Source: Chrysochromulina tobinii
Lineage: Eukaryota
NCBI GenBank assembly: GCA_001275005.1
Contig: JWZX01002628.1
Location: 1-42,899 of the forward strand
Reading direction: 5' to 3'
DNA: 42,899 nucleotides
Shown: in pieces, positions 1-37,598 of the stretch
How positions within the stretch are numbered: the first letter of the stretch is position 1
Layout of the letters: the number at the start of each line of letters is the position of its first letter
Translations under genes and position numbers: made by a program
Notes under the pieces: generated by a model
Databases searched by the model: none
Seen by the model: only the letters and a program-made list of their open reading frames with translations
What the model was told of the DNA's origin: nothing

Positions 1-464
1 GCCAGCAGCCGTGTCGCGTCGATACCCATCCGCATAGCAACCGCACGTGCCGCCGTGGCCGATACCCGACGTAGGCGGTCGTGGTCTGCACAGACTGCAC
101 GCTGCATGCACGCTAACCGGGCGGCCGTCCGCCACGCCTGGCCTCCCATACAAAGCCAGGGGTTACTCCCCGCCCCCCCCCTACACATGCCTCCGATTGC
201 GATCGCCAGCTGCTGACCAAGGGCAAGACGACGTGTCGGGATCAGGTCCAGGCAGCGGCGTCGCCGAGTTAGCCAGCGTCGTCTCTGTTGGAGAGTAGCG
301 AGCGCCGAAGACATAGCACTTCCCCAAGGCCGATTAGGCCGTTGCCCTACATGAATCCATCCCACACCGCGGATGAAGGTGCGCCCATGCTGTGGTACGC
401 TTGCCGCCGCCCCAAAGTAACGAGCAGATGCCGGGGACCACTCGTAGTCAGAGCGCGGATCATT
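1..464 (-). CDS. Second open frame (-1 relative to ORF 464-2530) running off the window edge; possible ORF2 N-terminus
   Basis: Manual translation NDPRSDYEWSPASARYFGAAASVPQHGRTFIRGVGWIHVG...GIDATRLL has no stop from 464 to 1. The first ATG below 464 is at 314. Confidence 0.25.
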
Positions 465-11268: not shown

Positions 11269-13845
11269 ATGCGGTGCGTTCGTCGTGGCACCGACAGCTT
11301 TCCGCAGCCGCTCTACGGAGAGGAGACTCCGCCTACGCCGATCACCGCCGACGAAAAGTATGCAAAGCGTGCAGGCCACGAATTGCACGCGATTCCATCG
11401 ATGTGCGACAGTGGAACGATGGATCCGACGAGTGCTGACACGCGCACGATGGCGTTGCTGCTCGGTGCCGGCTTTTTGACGCGCTTTTATGGCCTGAACT
11501 GGCCACCGCAGGTGGTCTTTGACGAGGTCCATTTCGGCAAATTTATTAGTGGCTACATCACGGGCCGGTACTTTTTCGACATCCACCCACCCCTCGGCAA
11601 GCTGCTCATTGCGGCGGTCGCCTGGTGGTCGGGGTACGACGGCACACAGCCCTTTGAGACGATTGGCGAGCACTACCACCCGCATGTCGACATCTTCATG
11701 CTGCGTGCGCTGCCGGCAACCTTCGGAGCCGCGCTGCCGCCGCTCATGTACGCCCTGGCGCGGGAGCTCGGCTGCTCGCGCACCGCTGCGACGCTTGTGG
11801 GCGGCCTGGTGCTGCTCGACGGTGCGATGCTCGTCGAGTCGCGTCTCCTGCTCACCGATAGCTCCCTCTTCTTTTGGGATTCTCTGCAGCTCCTGACAGC
11901 CCTCCGAGCTTCAGCGGCACCGCGCGGCACCGCAGCGTTTCACGCGCAGCTCGCGCTGACGGGACTTGCAATCGGCGCGGCAGTGTCGACGAAATGGACC
12001 GCGCTTGCCAACATGGGCGTCGTTGGCCTCGATTCGATCCACTCCCTTCTCAAGACCATGCATGCATCCGTCCACCGGCTGCAAGGGCAGCCACAGCAGC
12101 CACAGCCGTCACAGCCGCCACAGCCGCCACAGCCGCCACAGCCGCCACAGCCGCCACAGCCGCCACAGCAGCGGCACGAGCTCCCACATTCACAGCAACA
12201 ACATTCACAGCAATGGCACGATTGGTCGCCGCCCTCGTCGCCGCCGCTGACGTCGCCGCCTCAGCAGCGGGTGGCAACCAACGGCCCTATGGCAACCAAC
12301 GACCCCAATATGGCAACCAACGACCCAAATATGGCAGCCAACGACCTCGAGGCCCACAACCCGGAGGCTATCAGAGGGCGGCGCAGCCCGGAGCTCGTCC
12401 GCGACGGTAGTAGTTTGGTGGCAGTTGCCTGGGCGAACGGGCGTGGCGGCGGCTGCTCGCGCGTGCCTGCGGTGCTGCACCGACGCGTGCTACAAGCGAC
12501 CCCTCCGCGCCTGGGTGCTCTGATGGTAGCGCTGCAGCCAGTAGCATCCGAGTTTGGTGCTCGCTTTGTGTGGCTGTTGCTGCTGCCCTCGGCGGTCTAC
12601 CTCACTTGCATGGCGTTACACATTAAGCTGCTACCGTACGTGGGCCGCGGCGATAACTTCCACGATCGGCACTTTCGCTGCCGGCTGCTCCTTCTGCCCC
12701 GCGCCGGTGCCGGCGCCGCCGCCGAGACGCAGAGTCTACTCGCAGTGCCGCCGCCTGGGTGCGTCGCCGTAGGCTGCGACGCGTGTGCCGAAGTGACGCC
12801 TCTCAGCCTATGGCAGGCGATTATCTCTCTGAACAAACTCATGTTCACGGCGAATGCGAACATCAAGAGATCGCACGCCTTTGGCTCAGGCTGGAGGATG
12901 TGGCCACTGGCCTCCAAACCTGTGTTTTATTGGACGCTCAACACGCCGCACTTTTCGAGGCTCCGCTGGTGCCGCATCTACATGGCCGCCAACCCACTTG
13001 TCTGGTACGTGGGGCTCTTCCTGATGACCTCTGATGACCTCTGATGACCTCTGATGACCTCTGATGACCTCTGATGACCTCTGATCGCCTCCCTCATCAG
13101 GTACGTGGGGCTCGCGGGGATCGTGCTGCTGGCGCTCGTGCTCGCTTTCCTTGGAGCTCGCGGCCTCCTCCGCTCCGCCTATAGATGGGTACGCTGGAAG
13201 GACTCACGATCACGAGACAGGGCGCTCTCTGTCCTCCCACTGGCAGCGGCTGCGGCCAGCCATGCCGGTGCTCAGCACGGCGCTATCACGGGACCACGTC
13301 TGAGGAGAATCTCGGAGGAGAGTGACGAAACACATCTGAGGAGAATCTCGGAGGAGAAAGACGGAGGCCATCCGGAGCTCGGCCAGCGAGGATCTATCGA
13401 GGCTACTGTGGTGACGGCACCCTCATTGGCCTCGCCGTCGTGGCCGGCGTCAACGGCTCCAACGGCTCCAACGGCTCCAACGGCTCCAACGGCTCCTAGT
13501 CCTCTTGAAGTGCAGCTGCGCCACGGCTGGTTGCTGTTGGCCGGCCACGCCCTCGCGTGGCTGCCCTTTGCCGCCGTCGACCGCGTCGCCTTTCTGTACC
13601 ATTACATCCCCGCTCTGCTCTTCTCTCTACTGGCCGCCGGTCTCGTCTTCGATGTGCTCACGCAGCGAGCAGCCGCCTTCGCCCTTCCGCGAGGCTTCAC
13701 GGGGCGCGACCTCGCCGCTGCGCTGCTCCTCACACTTGCCCTCGCCAGCTTTCTTTATTTTATGCCCCTCTACCTTGGCTGGCCAATCGAACCGGGCGAT
13801 GGCGTCCACCGCATGCGTCGTCTAGATGTGTGGAGCGAGTCGTAG
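11269..13845 (+). CDS. PMT: Dolichyl-phosphate-mannose:protein O-mannosyltransferase (PMT/GT39); exons 11269-13004 and 13101-13845
   Basis: Motifs VVFDEVHFGKF, YFFDIHPPLGKLLI, ESRLLLTDS, VSTKWTAL, HAFGSGWRMWPL, IYMAANPLVWY and RVAFLYHYIPAL. Removing GT..AG 13005-13100 fuses the two ORFs in frame (..NPLVW|YVGLAG..). Confidence 0.92.
13005..13100 (+). mobile_element. Introner-like 96-nt intron: exon-copy 5' end, (CTGATGACCT)6 array, CCTCCCTCATCAG end
   Basis: GTACGTGGGGCTC at 13005 recurs at 13101. Six perfect decamers at 13021-13080. An in-frame stop means it must be spliced out. Confidence 0.8.
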
Positions 13846-24810: not shown

Positions 24811-24947
24811 AATGCATGCTGAGGCGTCAGTCTGCCCAATGCATGCTGAGGCGTCAGTCTGCCCAATGCATACTGAGACGTCAGTCTGCCCAATGCATGC
24901 TGAGACGTCAGTCTGCCCAATGCATGCTGAGGCGTCAGTCTGCCCAA
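24811..24947. repeat. 27-bp minisatellite, 5 copies (AATGCATGCTGAGGCGTCAGTCTGCCC)
   Basis: Head-to-tail copies with only G/A variants and no spacers. Confidence 0.95.
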
Positions 24948-25213
24948 GAGCCTTTCAGCTGCTGCTAGCCATACTGTACACGAGCTATTAGCCATTAGAT
25001 GCCTTGCGGTGTCGACACAGTGGGTGTGCGGTGCGAGTGTGTGTACATGAGTTTCGTGTTGACATGGTTTCGTGCTCGGCTGTGCGTCCCGGGTCCGCTC
25101 GCCCGTACGGCCGTACCTCGCCGGCACTCGAGAATACCCCGCGGCCCGCGCGCGCGGCGCGTACGGCGTCGGGCGGTACCGGGCCGGGCGGAACGTACTT
25201 ATCTACTCGTTGC

Positions 25214-26156
25214 GAGCCCTGGCTGTCACCGAGCTGTCGAGCTGTCGAGGCTCCGTCGAGGCGCTGTCGAGGCGCTGTCGAGTCGACTGTCGAGGCGCTG
25301 TCGAGGCGCTGTCGAGGCCTTGCCTGTCGAGCCTGTCGAGCCTGTCGAGCTCCTGTCGAGTAGCTGTGTCGAGGCTGTCGAGGCTGACTGCAGGTGCCTG
25401 GGTGTCGAGCTGTCGTGTCGAGTAGCTGTCGAGTTTCTCTGTCGAGGCTGTCGAGTTTATATACACTGTCGAGTGTGCTGTCGAGCTCGAGCCTGACATG
25501 TAGCTTTGCTATTTTGCATGAAGCACTCTGACTCTCACAGCAGTAGGCCTATAGAGGACCCACACATAAACCACCAACCAAACTATAGTTCAAACGGATA
25601 AAGAACGCTCGGGCTCGGAGATCAGGACCCGTCACACCCTAACCCCTAACCCCTAACCCCTACATAGCCACAGGTTTCTTTACTGTTATACTGTAATACC
25701 CACCCTAAACCCCTACCTAGCCACTGGTTTCAAGACCAGAAAATGCAATCTTGATGCAATTCTAAGGAGAATTAGGTCAAAAAGAGCACGAAAGAGCACA
25801 AACGTGGAACGTTAGTGGAACGAAAGGTCCACCAGAACATCCATCATCCAGCCACCAAGTTGTGTAGTTGAGCAGTGGGTCCATCAACCTTCACCCTGAA
25901 GGAGTGGGGCTCTAACCTGGCTTCTCTCAGCTAGTGCTTGTAGATCCCAGTCTTAGACCTCGTGTTACCTCGTTAACCTCGTGTCGAGGTCTGTCGAGGT
26001 CTGTCGAGCTGTCGAGCTGTCGAGCTTGACACCTTGACGCACAGGCACATGGAGTCACGAGTAGCTCTGTCGAGTAACTGTCGAGTAGCTTTGACTTCTA
26101 GCTGTCGAGTAACTCTAACTGTCGAGTTTCCTGTCGAGTTGTCGAGGCCAGGGCTC
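25214..26156. mobile_element. Putative non-autonomous DNA element: 10-bp TIRs, TGTCGAG-rich arrays at both ends, AT-richer core
   Basis: GAGCCCTGGC at 25214-25223 and its reverse complement GCCAGGGCTC at 26147-26156. Dense TGTCGAG units at about 25235-25490 and 25980-26146. No clear TSD. Confidence 0.55.
25637..25662. repeat. Interstitial telomere-like repeat (CCCCTAA)n
   Basis: CCCTAACCCCTAACCCCTAACCCCTA, with a degenerate CCCTAAACCCCTA near 25703. Confidence 0.6.
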
Positions 26157-26861
26157 AATGCGAATGATGTATTATCGAATATGACGTGACTTGACTTGAC
26201 TTTGACACTTCGTCTTCGACTTCGTGACTCGTTGGTGTGCGCACTGCCGGGTTGTGTATGTCTTGGGTGTCGAATAATAATCTTTGGCTATGTGAATGAA
26301 TGAACGAAGCGAGTTTGTCAGGGGTGTGAACGGGTGTTGCTCTTCATGTGTGCACGATTTCGCTCGTACGTGCTTGTGTATGAATTCTCGATTGCGTGGT
26401 ACAAGTGTTGTACTTGTGTTGTGAATTTTTCGAACGTATGTTGTGGTGTAAATGACCCTTCACATGTTGCGCGATTGCGTTTGGATTGCGTTCTTGGTTC
26501 TACGTGTTGGTGTGTCGCCGAATCTCTCTTTTTTTGGCTACTTCTCCGCTCTCCGTCTGCATGTGTCTCATTTCGATGGTCCTTCGCAGCATCTCGCTCT
26601 TGAGTCTTGTTGTGAATGCTGTTTACGTGTGGTGGGGGTCCAGGGGTCCCCGAGCTACAATTGCCGAGCTAGTAGTAACCGCATCCGTATGTACGGTTGT
26701 ACGCCGGTCCGGTGTCTTGGGTGTCGAATTGTTATCTTGGCTGTACTTTGCCTGTGAATTCATGTATTGTATTGTATTGTTTTCACGGCGATGCTGCTTA
26801 CCGGCACCGGTACGTGAAGTGTCTGTTCATATGAATTCATTCATGAGTCTCGGCGCGCGGC

Positions 26862-34849: not shown

Positions 34850-35521
34850 TCATCTGTTGCTCGACGATACCCCTGCCGCCTCCGGCCGCTCCTTTCGCCG
34901 CCGCCTCCTCCCGCCGCCGCCGCGGCCGCCGCCTCCTTTGGCCGCCGTGGCCGCCGCGCGTTGCCCACGCCGCTCGCGCCTCGCGCCGGGGGGCCTCCTC
35001 TTGGGCGCTCCATTGCGATAGACCTGCTGCTCGCACCGCTCGTGCTCGTATGGCGTCGTCTCGGGCTGCATATGCTCCCACGCAAACGAAAAGGCCGCCG
35101 GCCCCTTGAGGTTATGCACGAGCACCGAGCTGTTCGCAGGCGGCCGGTACGTGGCGCCGCCCCGCCGCTTGCGCTCCCCCTGCGGATGGCATGCAATGTC
35201 ATGCACGAGGGGCCCGATGTCGATGTAGTGCACCGTGCGAGGCGCTCGCGACACCATGTACCCGGTGCTCGTATCCTCAAACTTTTGCCATTGGAGCGTC
35301 TCGTGCTCCGGACCGGCGGCGTCGGCCACCCACTGGGTCACCTCGGCAGAGGTTGCGACGTGCTGGAGGAGGGCGGCGGAGAAGAAGTAGCCCGCGCCAG
35401 TGCCGTAGGGAAAAGGCAGCACCGCGCCGCGCGTGTCGCAGCTCTCCACATAGCCGGGCGTGCTGGGAGTACCGAAACTGGAGCCAAAGTTGTTGAGGGC
35501 CGCCGAGAGGTCCCACCCAAA
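34850..35521 (-). pseudogene. 5'-truncated paralog of the adjacent GT31-like glycosyltransferase (C-terminal half only)
   Basis: FGWDLSAALNNFG..CD..GAVLPFPYGTGAGYFFSAA..QWQKFEDTSTGY..YRPP..VHNLK aligns with the upstream gene. An in-frame TAA (35522-35524) directly precedes it, and no splice acceptor or N-terminal half is present. Confidence 0.7.
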
Positions 35522-35604: not shown

Positions 35605-35720
35605 CCATATTAGGTTGCGCTTTTGTGCGGGTTTCGTCGCGCCCATATTAGGTTGCGCTTTTGTGCGGGTTTCGTCGCGCCCATATTAGGTTGCGCTTTT
35701 GTGCGGGTTTCGTCGCGCCC
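35605..35720. repeat. 38-bp perfect tandem repeat, 3 copies
   Basis: CCATATTAGGTTGCGCTTTTGTGCGGGTTTCGTCGCGC starts at 35605, 35643 and 35681. Confidence 0.95.
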
Positions 35721-37598
35721 AGTCAGCGCCCGTGCGCCTTCGGCCGCGACCCCTGCCGCGGCCGCTGCCACCCTCGGCAAGCGGCGTGGTGGCCTCGGCA
35801 GCGCTTGCCGGAAGCGAGGCCGCCTCTAGTCGAGGTCGTTTCCTGCCAAGGCCACCCCTGCTTTTGTAGGCTTCCTCGTGATTGCTGCTCAGTCGGCCGC
35901 GGCGGCGGATGCGCGTGCCTCCGTCGCGTGCGCACTGCTCGTGATCATAAAGCGTAGCCCCCTGGCCCATGGCGTGCGACGCATAGTGGAAGCCGCCGTG
36001 CTTGAGGTTATGCACGAACAGGGTCAGGTTACAGGGCGGGCGGTAGAGGCCGCCTCCCTTGGCCTTGAGTGCACCGTTTTTATGGCACACGAAGTCGTGT
36101 ACCCAGCGTCCGACATTGACGTACAGGATAGTGAACGGCGCGTAGCTGAGCCAGTAACCAGTAGAGGTATCCTCAAACTTCTGCCACTGGATCGCGTCGC
36201 GCGTGGGGCCGGCCGCTTGGCGTACCTGATGAGGGAGGTCACCAGAGGCCATCAGAGGTCATCAGAGGCCGAGCTCGGCGTACCTGATGAGGGAGGCCAT
36301 CAGAGGTCATCAGAGGGGCCAGCCGCTTGGCGTACCCAGTTGATCACGGCCGCGTCGGTGGCCACCCATCGCAGCGTCGCCGCGCTGAAGACATAGGCCG
36401 CACCCGTGCCGTACGGGAACGGCGGTACGGCACCGAGCTTGTCGCACGGCGGGAAGTAGCTAGGGCACGGGAACGAGGAGCACGGCTTTCCAAACGTGGC
36501 GCCGTAGTTCACGAGCGCGGCCCCCACACCCCATCCGAAGCCACATCGGTCGTTGCGCACACCCGTACTGCGCGCCTGCGGCACCACTCCAGCCCAATTG
36601 ATGGCCCCTATGAAGAGGTGTTCCTTACAACGGAGCTGTGCTCCGAGCGCCACGAGCAGCGCAAGGTTGGGCGCAGTGTCATCGTCAATCTTGCCCACAT
36701 ACGGCACGTGCGGCAGCATGCGCGCCGCGTGCTGGAAGAATGCGTACTGCTTGAACGTCGGCATGCCGCGGCCCAGTCGTGTGAAGTTGGAGTAGGCCGT
36801 CTTCGCTGTAATGAGCGCACGTGTCTCGGGCACATCGAGCAGGAGCAGGTCAGCATGCGCGCCCTGCTCCGCGATGAGCGCGGCCGTCTCATCGGCGGGG
36901 CCGTGCGCGGAGAGCAAGAAGCACGCGGCGACGCTGCGCCCGTAGGCAGCATGCGCCATCCACGACGTCCGCGCAGCATCGCGCCGTCCGCTGCCTGGCG
37001 ACAGCGCCGTCGTCGGCAGGCCGAGCAGGATGAGCAGCCCGTCGTCGAGCGAGCGCGAGGATGAGCCGCACCGAAGCGTACCGCGCGGCAGCCGCGTGAG
37101 AGCGCCGGCGCTGGCCTCGCGCAGCCGCGTCCGCAGCAAATCGCTGTCGGCCAGCGGTGCAACGAGACGAGTCGACGTCGTCCCACGAAGTGCGCTCGAG
37201 GTGAAGCTTTCGCCAGGTCCGTCAATGTCCGCAGGCAGAGCCACAGTGCGCTCTGAAGTGGACGTTCGATGATCGAAAGCTGCGCATTTGGGAAGCTTTC
37301 GCTGAGCGTGTGCCGCAGCGTCAAGTGAGAAGTCCTCGCCTCGCATGGGACCGTTGAGGTCAACGGACGGGTAGCGGCGCGAGAGCGCCTGCGAGAAGCA
37401 GCCCTTGTAGTCGCGGTTCGGGCACAGCGCTAGGAGCAGAGACACGTTGACGTTCTCACCCATGGGCACATTCGGCAGCTCGCGCAGCGGGCGGTCGCGA
37501 GGGTGTGCCATGGGCACACCAGCTCGAGGTTTGACGCGAAGGGTCAGCAGTGTGAAAGAATGGATGGAAAGAAGGGCGGCCAACAGCGCGAGAGCCAC
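35686..37598 (-). CDS. GT31-like (beta-1,3-galactosyltransferase-type) glycosyltransferase; exons 37598-36336 and 36225-35686
   Basis: N-terminal signal anchor, RRDAARTSW, EQGAHADLLLLD, YVGKIDDDT (DxD), PFPYGTGAAYVFS and FEDTSTGYWL. Removing 36226-36335 restores INW|VRQAAGPTRDAIQWQKFED, colinear with the paralog. Confidence 0.85.
36226..36335 (-). mobile_element. Double Introner-like intron (52 nt + 58 nt units, head-to-tail)
   Basis: Minus strand reads GTACGCCAAGCGGCTGGCCCC-TCTGATGACCTCTGATGGCCTCCCTCATCAG|GTACGCCGAGCTCGGCC-TCTGATGACCTCTGATGGCCTCTGGTGACCTCCCTCATCAG, followed by exon GTACGCCAAGCGGCCGGCCCC. Confidence 0.8.

What the first reader, a model, noticed from the sequence alone, without database searches (positions are those of the whole stretch)
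13005..13100. Intron-generating element: exon duplication plus decamer array at a G^GTAC site
Seen: the PMT intron opens with a 13-nt exact copy of the downstream exon (GTACGTGGGGCTC), which supplies the GT donor. Six perfect CTGATGACCT units and CCTCCCTCATCAG (the acceptor) follow. The same architecture occurs 23 kb away in an unrelated gene on the other strand. Known: Introner transposons in algae such as Micromonas and Aureococcus create introns and can take a splice site from a short TSD. Inference: long, unequal duplications (13 vs 21 nt), no TIRs and a variable-number repeat array do not fit a cut-and-paste MITE. They instead suggest staggered cleavage at GTAC followed by templated repeat addition (TPRT- or telomerase-like), which could be a distinct intron-gain mechanism.
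Basis: partly seen in the sequence, partly recalled or inferred. Interest (0 to 1): 0.88.

Follow-up and report, generated by a model that had tools for sequence, protein, structure and literature searches.

The report
Self-copying introns with long target duplications
This is a real intron of a freshwater alga, absent from the matching RNA, and one of a large family that likely spreads when the back half of an existing intron is copied into a staggered DNA break, with the duplicated gene sequence supplying the front splice site.

Summary
Observation confirmed. Window 13005-13100 is a 96-nt GT-AG intron in a protein-O-mannosyltransferase gene of the haptophyte Chrysochromulina tobinii. It has a 13-nt exon copy, six decamers and a CCTCCCTCATCAG end; one RNA contig skips it exactly.

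Of 150 distinct sites, 75 carry a clear 9-45-nt exon duplication starting at the first base after the AG (chance 1.6%). One filled/empty pair was found.

GTAC is 20 of 150 sites, and arrays are too diverged for a fixed telomerase-like template. The data show one exact end, one fuzzy end with microhomology, many templates, and sharing of rare variants between introns of one gene.

Best reading (0.45): the 3' half of existing introns is copied into staggered breaks in genes, likely from unspliced RNA. DNA template switching and a Replitron-like element remain open; no enzyme was found.

A 2025 survey lists zero introner families for this species. This scan noted the family before in the same genome (e1-2577349).

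The parts
11449..13845 (+). PMT (protein-O-mannosyltransferase) coding sequence, two exons; an in-frame ATG also lies at 11269
13005..13100 (+). Family intron, 96 nt, GT-AG, phase 2
   Evidence: RNA contig skips it
13005..13017 (+). 13-nt copy of the downstream exon start; supplies the GT donor
13021..13087 (+). Six perfect decamers plus one variant unit; each holds a CTGAT branch-point-like motif (role inferred)
13088..13100 (+). Constant end CCTCCCTCATCAG: pyrimidine tract and acceptor; last 7 nt are complementary to CTGATGA
13101..13113 (+). Exonic copy of the 13-nt duplication
35686..37511 (-). Galactosyltransferase-family gene that holds site 2
36284..36335 (-). Site 2 unit A, 52 nt: 21-nt exon duplication with 1 mismatch, repeats, constant end
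36226..36283 (-). Site 2 unit B, 58 nt: 7-nt exon copy, short spacer, repeats, constant end; A and B must both be removed to keep the frame
36205..36225 (-). Exonic copy of the site 2 duplication
35000..35460 (-). Paralogous galactosyltransferase-like segment without an intron at the homologous position (about 35330)
   Evidence: compared by eye

Best explanation
The insert is a spliceosomal intron of a large Chrysochromulina tobinii family that likely spreads by copying the 3' half of an existing family intron into a staggered break in a gene, probably using unspliced RNA as template. Shown: one exact end at the AG, a 9-45-nt duplication beginning at the next base, a fuzzy other end with microhomology, diverged arrays, gene-confined and sense-biased placement, one empty site, removal from RNA at site 1. 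Inferred steps: (1) nicks k bases apart leave 3' overhangs in a transcribed gene; (2) the antisense 3' end primes on the (C)AG|G junction of a family intron in pre-mRNA, often an upstream intron of the same gene; (3) a reverse transcriptase or repair polymerase copies the acceptor and part of the branch-point array; (4) the copy is joined to the other overhang through 2-5 nt that match a repeat unit; (5) fill-in duplicates k bases, and copies whose duplicate starts with GT/GC splice out cleanly and become new templates. Whole units then double or change repeat number locally.
For: Duplication at the exact exon start in 79 of 150 sites against 1.6% after permutation; 75 after dropping 4 repeat-on-repeat matches, median 21 nt; 92 of 150 with gaps allowed, chance 4.1%. 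Microhomology at the fuzzy end averages 2.1 nt against 0.40 in 26 of 71 junctions that run straight into a canonical unit. AG precedes 31 of 71 sites against 85 of 1465 control GT/GC sites. Arrays are older than their duplications. Rare 11-mers are shared by 7 of 74 same-locus pairs against 129 of 10222 others, 0 of 5000 label shuffles. A spacer that resembles the exon copy of one intron (L003) recurs in the intron about 440 nt downstream (L016), and that one is absent from a 98.4% identical allele, L026. Neighbours lie on the same strand 52 times and the opposite twice; 32 of 232 co-oriented coding windows, 1 of 77 opposite-strand windows and 3 of 117 unclassified windows hold a copy (p=0.001). 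Family repeats lie within 60 nt upstream of 15 and downstream of 4 of 69 duplication-bearing introns.
Against: No enzyme was found: 209 long ORFs around the loci gave no RT, transposase or HUH hit, though that is about 0.5% of a genome. RNA versus DNA template was not tested directly. Overall similarity of same-locus pairs is not raised (p=0.37); the 7 sharing pairs come from 5 loci. The downstream-younger bias is weak (33 vs 18 non-independent pairs, p=0.049). Clustering could reflect genes that tolerate introns, sampled more often. Selection alone can explain GT/GC starts, AG context and sense bias. At least 10 of 71 outer sites lie at or just behind an older intron end, so some units may be local doublings, not new positions. 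One copy is antisense and in frame in a coding exon (L070). The empty allele could be a loss between the 28-nt repeats. Site 1 has no nearby template in the window. All anchors were picked by an exact end motif, which biases toward young copies.
Confidence: 0.45

Rival explanations
1. DNA-only templated repair: a broken or stalled 3' end switches to a nearby family intron in DNA (polymerase theta-type end joining or fork template switching), copies array and acceptor, and returns upstream by microhomology; selection keeps the copies that splice.
For: Microhomology at both junctions, local templates, an antisense copy carrying one extra base past the AG, a genome rich in tandem duplications and other inserts with 13-14-nt direct repeats.
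Against: Copies are nearly absent from opposite-strand neighbours and unclassified windows and lean downstream of older copies; fork-based switching should be symmetric with respect to the gene (inference).
Confidence: 0.22
2. Non-autonomous HUH element of the Replitron/Helitron kind: a Rep enzyme nicks at the terminal hairpin, joins that end exactly beside a dinucleotide target, and leaves a fuzzy far end with a variable duplication.
For: Replitron-1 of Chlamydomonas inserts with one exact end at a dinucleotide, one fuzzy end and variable-length duplications (PMC10288648 section 9); a Replitron-like fragment is listed for C. tobinii. The hairpin-forming positions -7 to -4 carry 5 substitutions against 52 at -13 to -8 among 224 ends (p=1e-7).
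Against: No second conserved terminus, no shared body beyond the array, and the commonest last unit (CTGATTG, 79 of 150) breaks one pair of the stem. The listed Replitron is a single incomplete copy. Near absence from intergenic DNA is unexplained.
Confidence: 0.15
3. Half reverse splicing: the spliceosome joins the 3' end of an excised intron to single-stranded DNA of an R-loop at an AG|G site, the second step fails, and repair copies the RNA tail and duplicates the exon start.
For: Exact 3' end, gene confinement, proto-splice-site context and reuse of old exon junctions. The full version was proposed for Micromonas introners (PMC4540971 passages).
Against: Reverse splicing into DNA is hypothetical; the antisense copy with an extra base and starts other than GT/GC in 19 of 150 do not fit.
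Confidence: 0.1
4. One reading: a fixed RNA template (telomerase-like, or the stem-loop plus repeat tail of a LINE/SINE in antisense) adds decamers at a GTAC cut.
For: Site 1 has six identical units; read antisense the element is a stem-loop followed by tandem repeats, like tails of some LINEs (recalled); duplication lengths fit target-primed insertion.
Confidence: 0.08

Closest known systems
Introners that take the 5' splice site from the target duplication (Symbiodinium; Polarella classes 4/5 and 6/8/10; Aureococcus type)
   Same: Element carries the 3' splice site; the duplicate gives the donor; mRNA unchanged; many copies (PMC9860276 and bioRxiv 10.1101/2020.10.14.339549, passages).
   Different: Those have fixed 4- or 8-nt duplications (3-9 bp in the survey) and defined ends, often TIRs. 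Here the duplication is 9-45 nt or shorter, the 5' end is fuzzy, and the body is a variable array.
Replitron-1 / Replitron-N1 of Chlamydomonas reinhardtii
   Same: One exact end beside a dinucleotide target, one fuzzy end, variable-length duplication, copy-and-paste, terminal hairpin (PMC10288648 section 9, read whole).
   Different: Replitrons are 0.9-3.6 kb with 6-nt direct terminal repeats and a Rep gene, and that section does not describe them as introns; no partner enzyme is shown here.
Micromonas introner elements and fungal introner-like elements
   Same: On the coding strand of genes; stem-loop noted; RNA- or R-loop-based spread proposed (PMC4540971, PMC3443670 passages).
   Different: They insert whole, with both splice sites and, for many families, no duplication.
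Daphnia introns gained at staggered double-strand breaks
   Same: Direct repeats flank new introns; presence/absence polymorphism (PMC4540971, PMC3443670 passages).
   Different: Repeats are 5-12 nt and the source of the filler is unclear; here the filler is one family's own 3' half.
Chrysochromulina sp. TARA MAG introner family 5
   Same: Same genus; no TIRs.
   Different: 4-bp duplication, carries the 5' site and co-opts the 3' site (PMC9860276 Fig. 2C legend): the opposite polarity.

Membership tests
Introner (broad sense) | Many related introns in unrelated genes | tested here: met
   128+ stretches, 150 distinct ends; diverse Pfam hosts
Introner (broad sense) | Precise removal from mRNA | tested here: met
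   One RNA contig at site 1; 15 of 15 listed conspecific DNA-derived proteins read into the intron, so an empty allele is the less likely source. Other sites judged by frame only.
Introner (broad sense) | Recent gain shown by empty sites | tested here: met
   L016 filled, L026 empty (loss not excluded); paralog empty; homologs continuous across site 1
Introner (broad sense) | End-to-end similarity among copies | tested here: not met
   Only the 3' 20 nt or so and the array are shared
TIR/MITE introner | Fixed short target duplication | tested here: not met
   9-45 nt, median 21
TIR/MITE introner | Inverted repeats at both termini | tested here: not met
   Only a 7-nt complement between units and the end; no fixed 5' terminus
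Replitron-1-like HUH element | Exact end at a dinucleotide target, fuzzy far end, variable duplication | tested here: met
Replitron-1-like HUH element | Short direct repeats at both termini | tested here: not met
   No conserved far terminus
Replitron-1-like HUH element | Autonomous Rep gene with the same ends | not testable with these tools
   No genome held; none near the loci
Non-LTR (TPRT) SINE | Variable long duplication with microhomology at the truncated end | tested here: met
Non-LTR (TPRT) SINE | One master body, inserted in any orientation and mostly outside exons | tested here: not met
   Many templates; 120 of 144 ends score as sense coding and the 8 lowest look sense coding by eye
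Non-LTR (TPRT) SINE | Partner reverse transcriptase | not testable with these tools
   No genome held
Telomerase-like repeat addition | Homogeneous units from one template | tested here: not met
   68 differences in 670 nt beside perfect duplications
Micromonas IE / fungal ILE | Coding strand only | tested here: inconclusive
   Nearly so; one antisense in-frame copy
Micromonas IE / fungal ILE | Whole intron inserted without duplication | tested here: not met

The most novel reading that the evidence does not exclude
A transposase-free, self-propagating intron class: the 3' half of any family intron, read from pre-mRNA, patches staggered breaks in its own or another gene, so each new intron is a new template. 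It would be a route of mass intron gain separate from transposon introners and invisible to end-to-end similarity searches, and may have made a large share of this alga's introns.
Probability: 0.35. Interest if true: 0.92.

Novelty: new variant of a known kind. Interest (0 to 1): 0.78.

Why it matters
How new spliceosomal introns arise is an open question, and current surveys credit transposons with defined ends. This family shows bulk intron gain with a different footprint in a cultured alga that a 2025 survey scored at zero introner families. Each insertion keeps a readable record: target duplication, template identity and junction microhomology. That lets the repair-based and RNA-based models of intron gain be tested copy by copy with an existing genome. 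If similarity-based searches miss such families, intron gain is undercounted.

Tried and rejected
No whole genome was held and the loci's records were not searchable, so copy number and a parent element could not be settled. Three viral-contig scans gave one chance hit in AT-rich phage-like DNA and two blanks. L001, L107 and L120 were dropped as chance matches without arrays. A global similarity test of neighbouring introns was negative; only the rare-word test was positive. Homology to the constant end further upstream than -3 at target sites was not clearly enriched. L056 looked antisense by ORF length but reads as a sense intron. A hammerhead-ribozyme reading of CUGAUGAG was considered from memory and not tested. 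The Penelope-like (Chlamys) paper PMC8557442 had no passage on target duplications. A motif search of the literature gave 137 papers; the 10 listed were unrelated by title and abstract start. Searches for a description of this family listed none, judged from listings only. Supplement searches: PMC12130899, 12 of 14 files, no motif hit; PMC9860276, one file cut when stored, no motif hit. The unseen files and the bioRxiv supplements could hold the family.

Full report
1. The observation. The described anatomy is in the sequence. The 96-nt segment 13005-13100 starts GT and ends AG. Its removal restores a 766-aa PMT protein, while retention meets stops. One contig of poly(A) run X11 joins 13003 to 13100, which equals the predicted splice; DNA run X8 holds the intron. 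X11 is an environmental sample with two substitutions, so an intron-less allele is possible. However, P0001 and the 14 other listed members of its 37-member cluster all read into the intron, and the homolog search showed no close read-through form. Site 2 (36335-36226, minus) is two tandem units whose joint removal restores a galactosyltransferase frame; it was not tested with RNA.

2. Host. A window protein clusters with a protein named Chrysochromulina tobinii on a contig of the window's length. The genome paper gives 59 Mb, 16,777 genes and about one intron per gene (PMC4580454, passages).

3. The family. After dropping three chance loci, 270 ends reduced to 180 terminal ends with enough flank and 150 distinct sites. 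In DNA run X8, 3422 contigs matched the repeat; two sites in 43 kb scale to about 2,800. Both are rough and suggest thousands of copies. An ungapped exon duplication scoring 9 or more begins at the base after the AG in 79 of 150 sites, against 1.6% when exons are permuted among sites with the same first two bases. Four were repeat-on-repeat artefacts; the 75 left span 9-45 nt, median 21. With gaps, 92 of 150 score 10 or more (chance 4.1%). Many of the rest show 4-8-nt copies by eye, which cannot be told from chance one by one.

4. Target. The first base is G in 140 of 150; GT 106, GC 25. GTGC (39) outnumbers GTAC (20), so there is no GTAC site. Upstream, G at -1 occurs in 54 of 71 and AG in 31 of 71, against 85 of 1465 controls. 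About ten of these lie at or just behind an older intron end. Selection for a donor and microhomology with the template's CAG|G both predict this pattern.

5. The fuzzy end. Where the duplication runs straight into a canonical unit (26 of 71), the last bases of the duplication match the unit for 2.1 nt on average against 0.40 expected.

6. Templates. Arrays are diverged beside perfect duplications (68 of 670 nt; 20 of 24 introns). Some of this may be register error or later conversion, but it argues against one fixed template. Rare 11-mers are shared within loci more than between (7 of 74 against 129 of 10222, from 5 loci), although overall similarity is not higher. The clearest case: a spacer in L003 resembling its own exon copy recurs in the next intron downstream, which is the polymorphic one.

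7. Placement. Neighbours are co-oriented 52 to 2. By a word-based strand classifier, 32 of 232 co-oriented windows, 1 of 77 opposite and 3 of 117 unclassified windows hold a copy. The classifier is crude: 44 of 64 held-out exons scored sense, 4 antisense. Of 144 ends, 120 scored as sense coding and the 8 lowest looked sense coding by eye. One copy is antisense: a 63-nt in-frame insert in a long coiled-coil ORF, with a 20-nt duplication and one extra base past the AG (L070).

8. Gain. L016 has a 79-nt family intron with a perfect 28-nt duplication that is cleanly absent from L026, 98.4% identical. This was the only presence/absence case in nine pairs aligned; others differed in unit or repeat number. 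Seven of 11 homologs run through site 1 without an insert and four lacked the anchor motif; two of the seven are annotated spliced proteins and say nothing, and the others are of unknown DNA or RNA origin. A paralog in the window lacks the site 2 intron.

9. The end motif. Among 224 ends allowed two substitutions, positions -7 to -4 carry 5 and positions -13 to -8 carry 52. TCAT before the CAG is thus held more tightly than the pyrimidine tract. It can pair with CTGAT of the last unit. Whether this serves mobility or splicing is unknown, and it is the best point for the HUH rival.

10. Mechanism. Shown: exact 3' end, fuzzy 5' end, long variable duplication, many templates, local bias. Inferred: staggered nicks, priming on a family AG|G junction, copying of acceptor and array, microhomology joining, fill-in. 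I favour an unspliced RNA template because copies are confined to genes and lean downstream of older ones (15 vs 4 within 60 nt; 33 vs 18 pairs), but that evidence is weak. No RT, transposase or HUH domain was found in 209 ORFs.

11. Known systems. Introners with a donor from the duplication have fixed short duplications (PMC9860276, bioRxiv 2020.10.14.339549; passages). The 2025 survey lists C. tobinii with 0 families (PMC12130899 supplement; passages). Replitron-1 shares the insertion topology (PMC10288648 section 9 read whole). Daphnia break-repair introns and the R-loop reverse-splicing model are described in PMC3443670 and PMC4540971 (passages). It works like a break-repair or target-primed copy-and-paste introner, and it fails membership of TIR/MITE introners and of telomerase-like addition. 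I found no description of the family in the searches named under Tried and rejected.

12. Verdict. Real feature, new variant of a known kind, interest 0.78; mechanism confidence 0.45.

Noticed in passing
L070 2480-2565: Antisense, in-frame 63-nt family copy kept in a 1461-aa stop-free ORF. The neighbouring EVIKE-repeat coding array reads in antisense much like the family decamer (TGATGACCTC shared).
   Followed up: partly
L016 1046-1245 and 889-989: Two other inserts absent from L026: 200 nt with a 13-nt direct repeat and a clean empty site, and about 100 nt with a 14-nt repeat and a (GAAC)n tail; they hint at general long-duplication insertion activity.
   Followed up: partly
window 36226-36335: Tandem units leave an AG|GT with no exon between them, a possible recursive splice point; 15 of 75 duplication-bearing sites are multi-unit.
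   Followed up: partly
L103 about 190-322 (minus): The intron copy starts GC where the exon copy has GA, as if one copy changed to make a usable donor; GA starts occur at 6 of 150 sites.
   Followed up: no
window 24811-26200: Non-coding island with a 27-mer x5, many CTGTCGAG units and CCCTAAC x3.7; possibly a repeat element.
   Followed up: no
window 35000-35460 (minus): Partial paralog of the site 2 galactosyltransferase, separated from it by a 38-mer x3 array at 35605-35721.
   Followed up: partly
window 12090-12346 and 13302-13496: In-frame tandem expansions inside PMT; the Gln/Pro run is absent from the related protein P0001.
   Followed up: no
L084 and L089: Identical downstream of a 22-mer array but unrelated upstream; probably an assembly join through the repeat.
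   Followed up: partly
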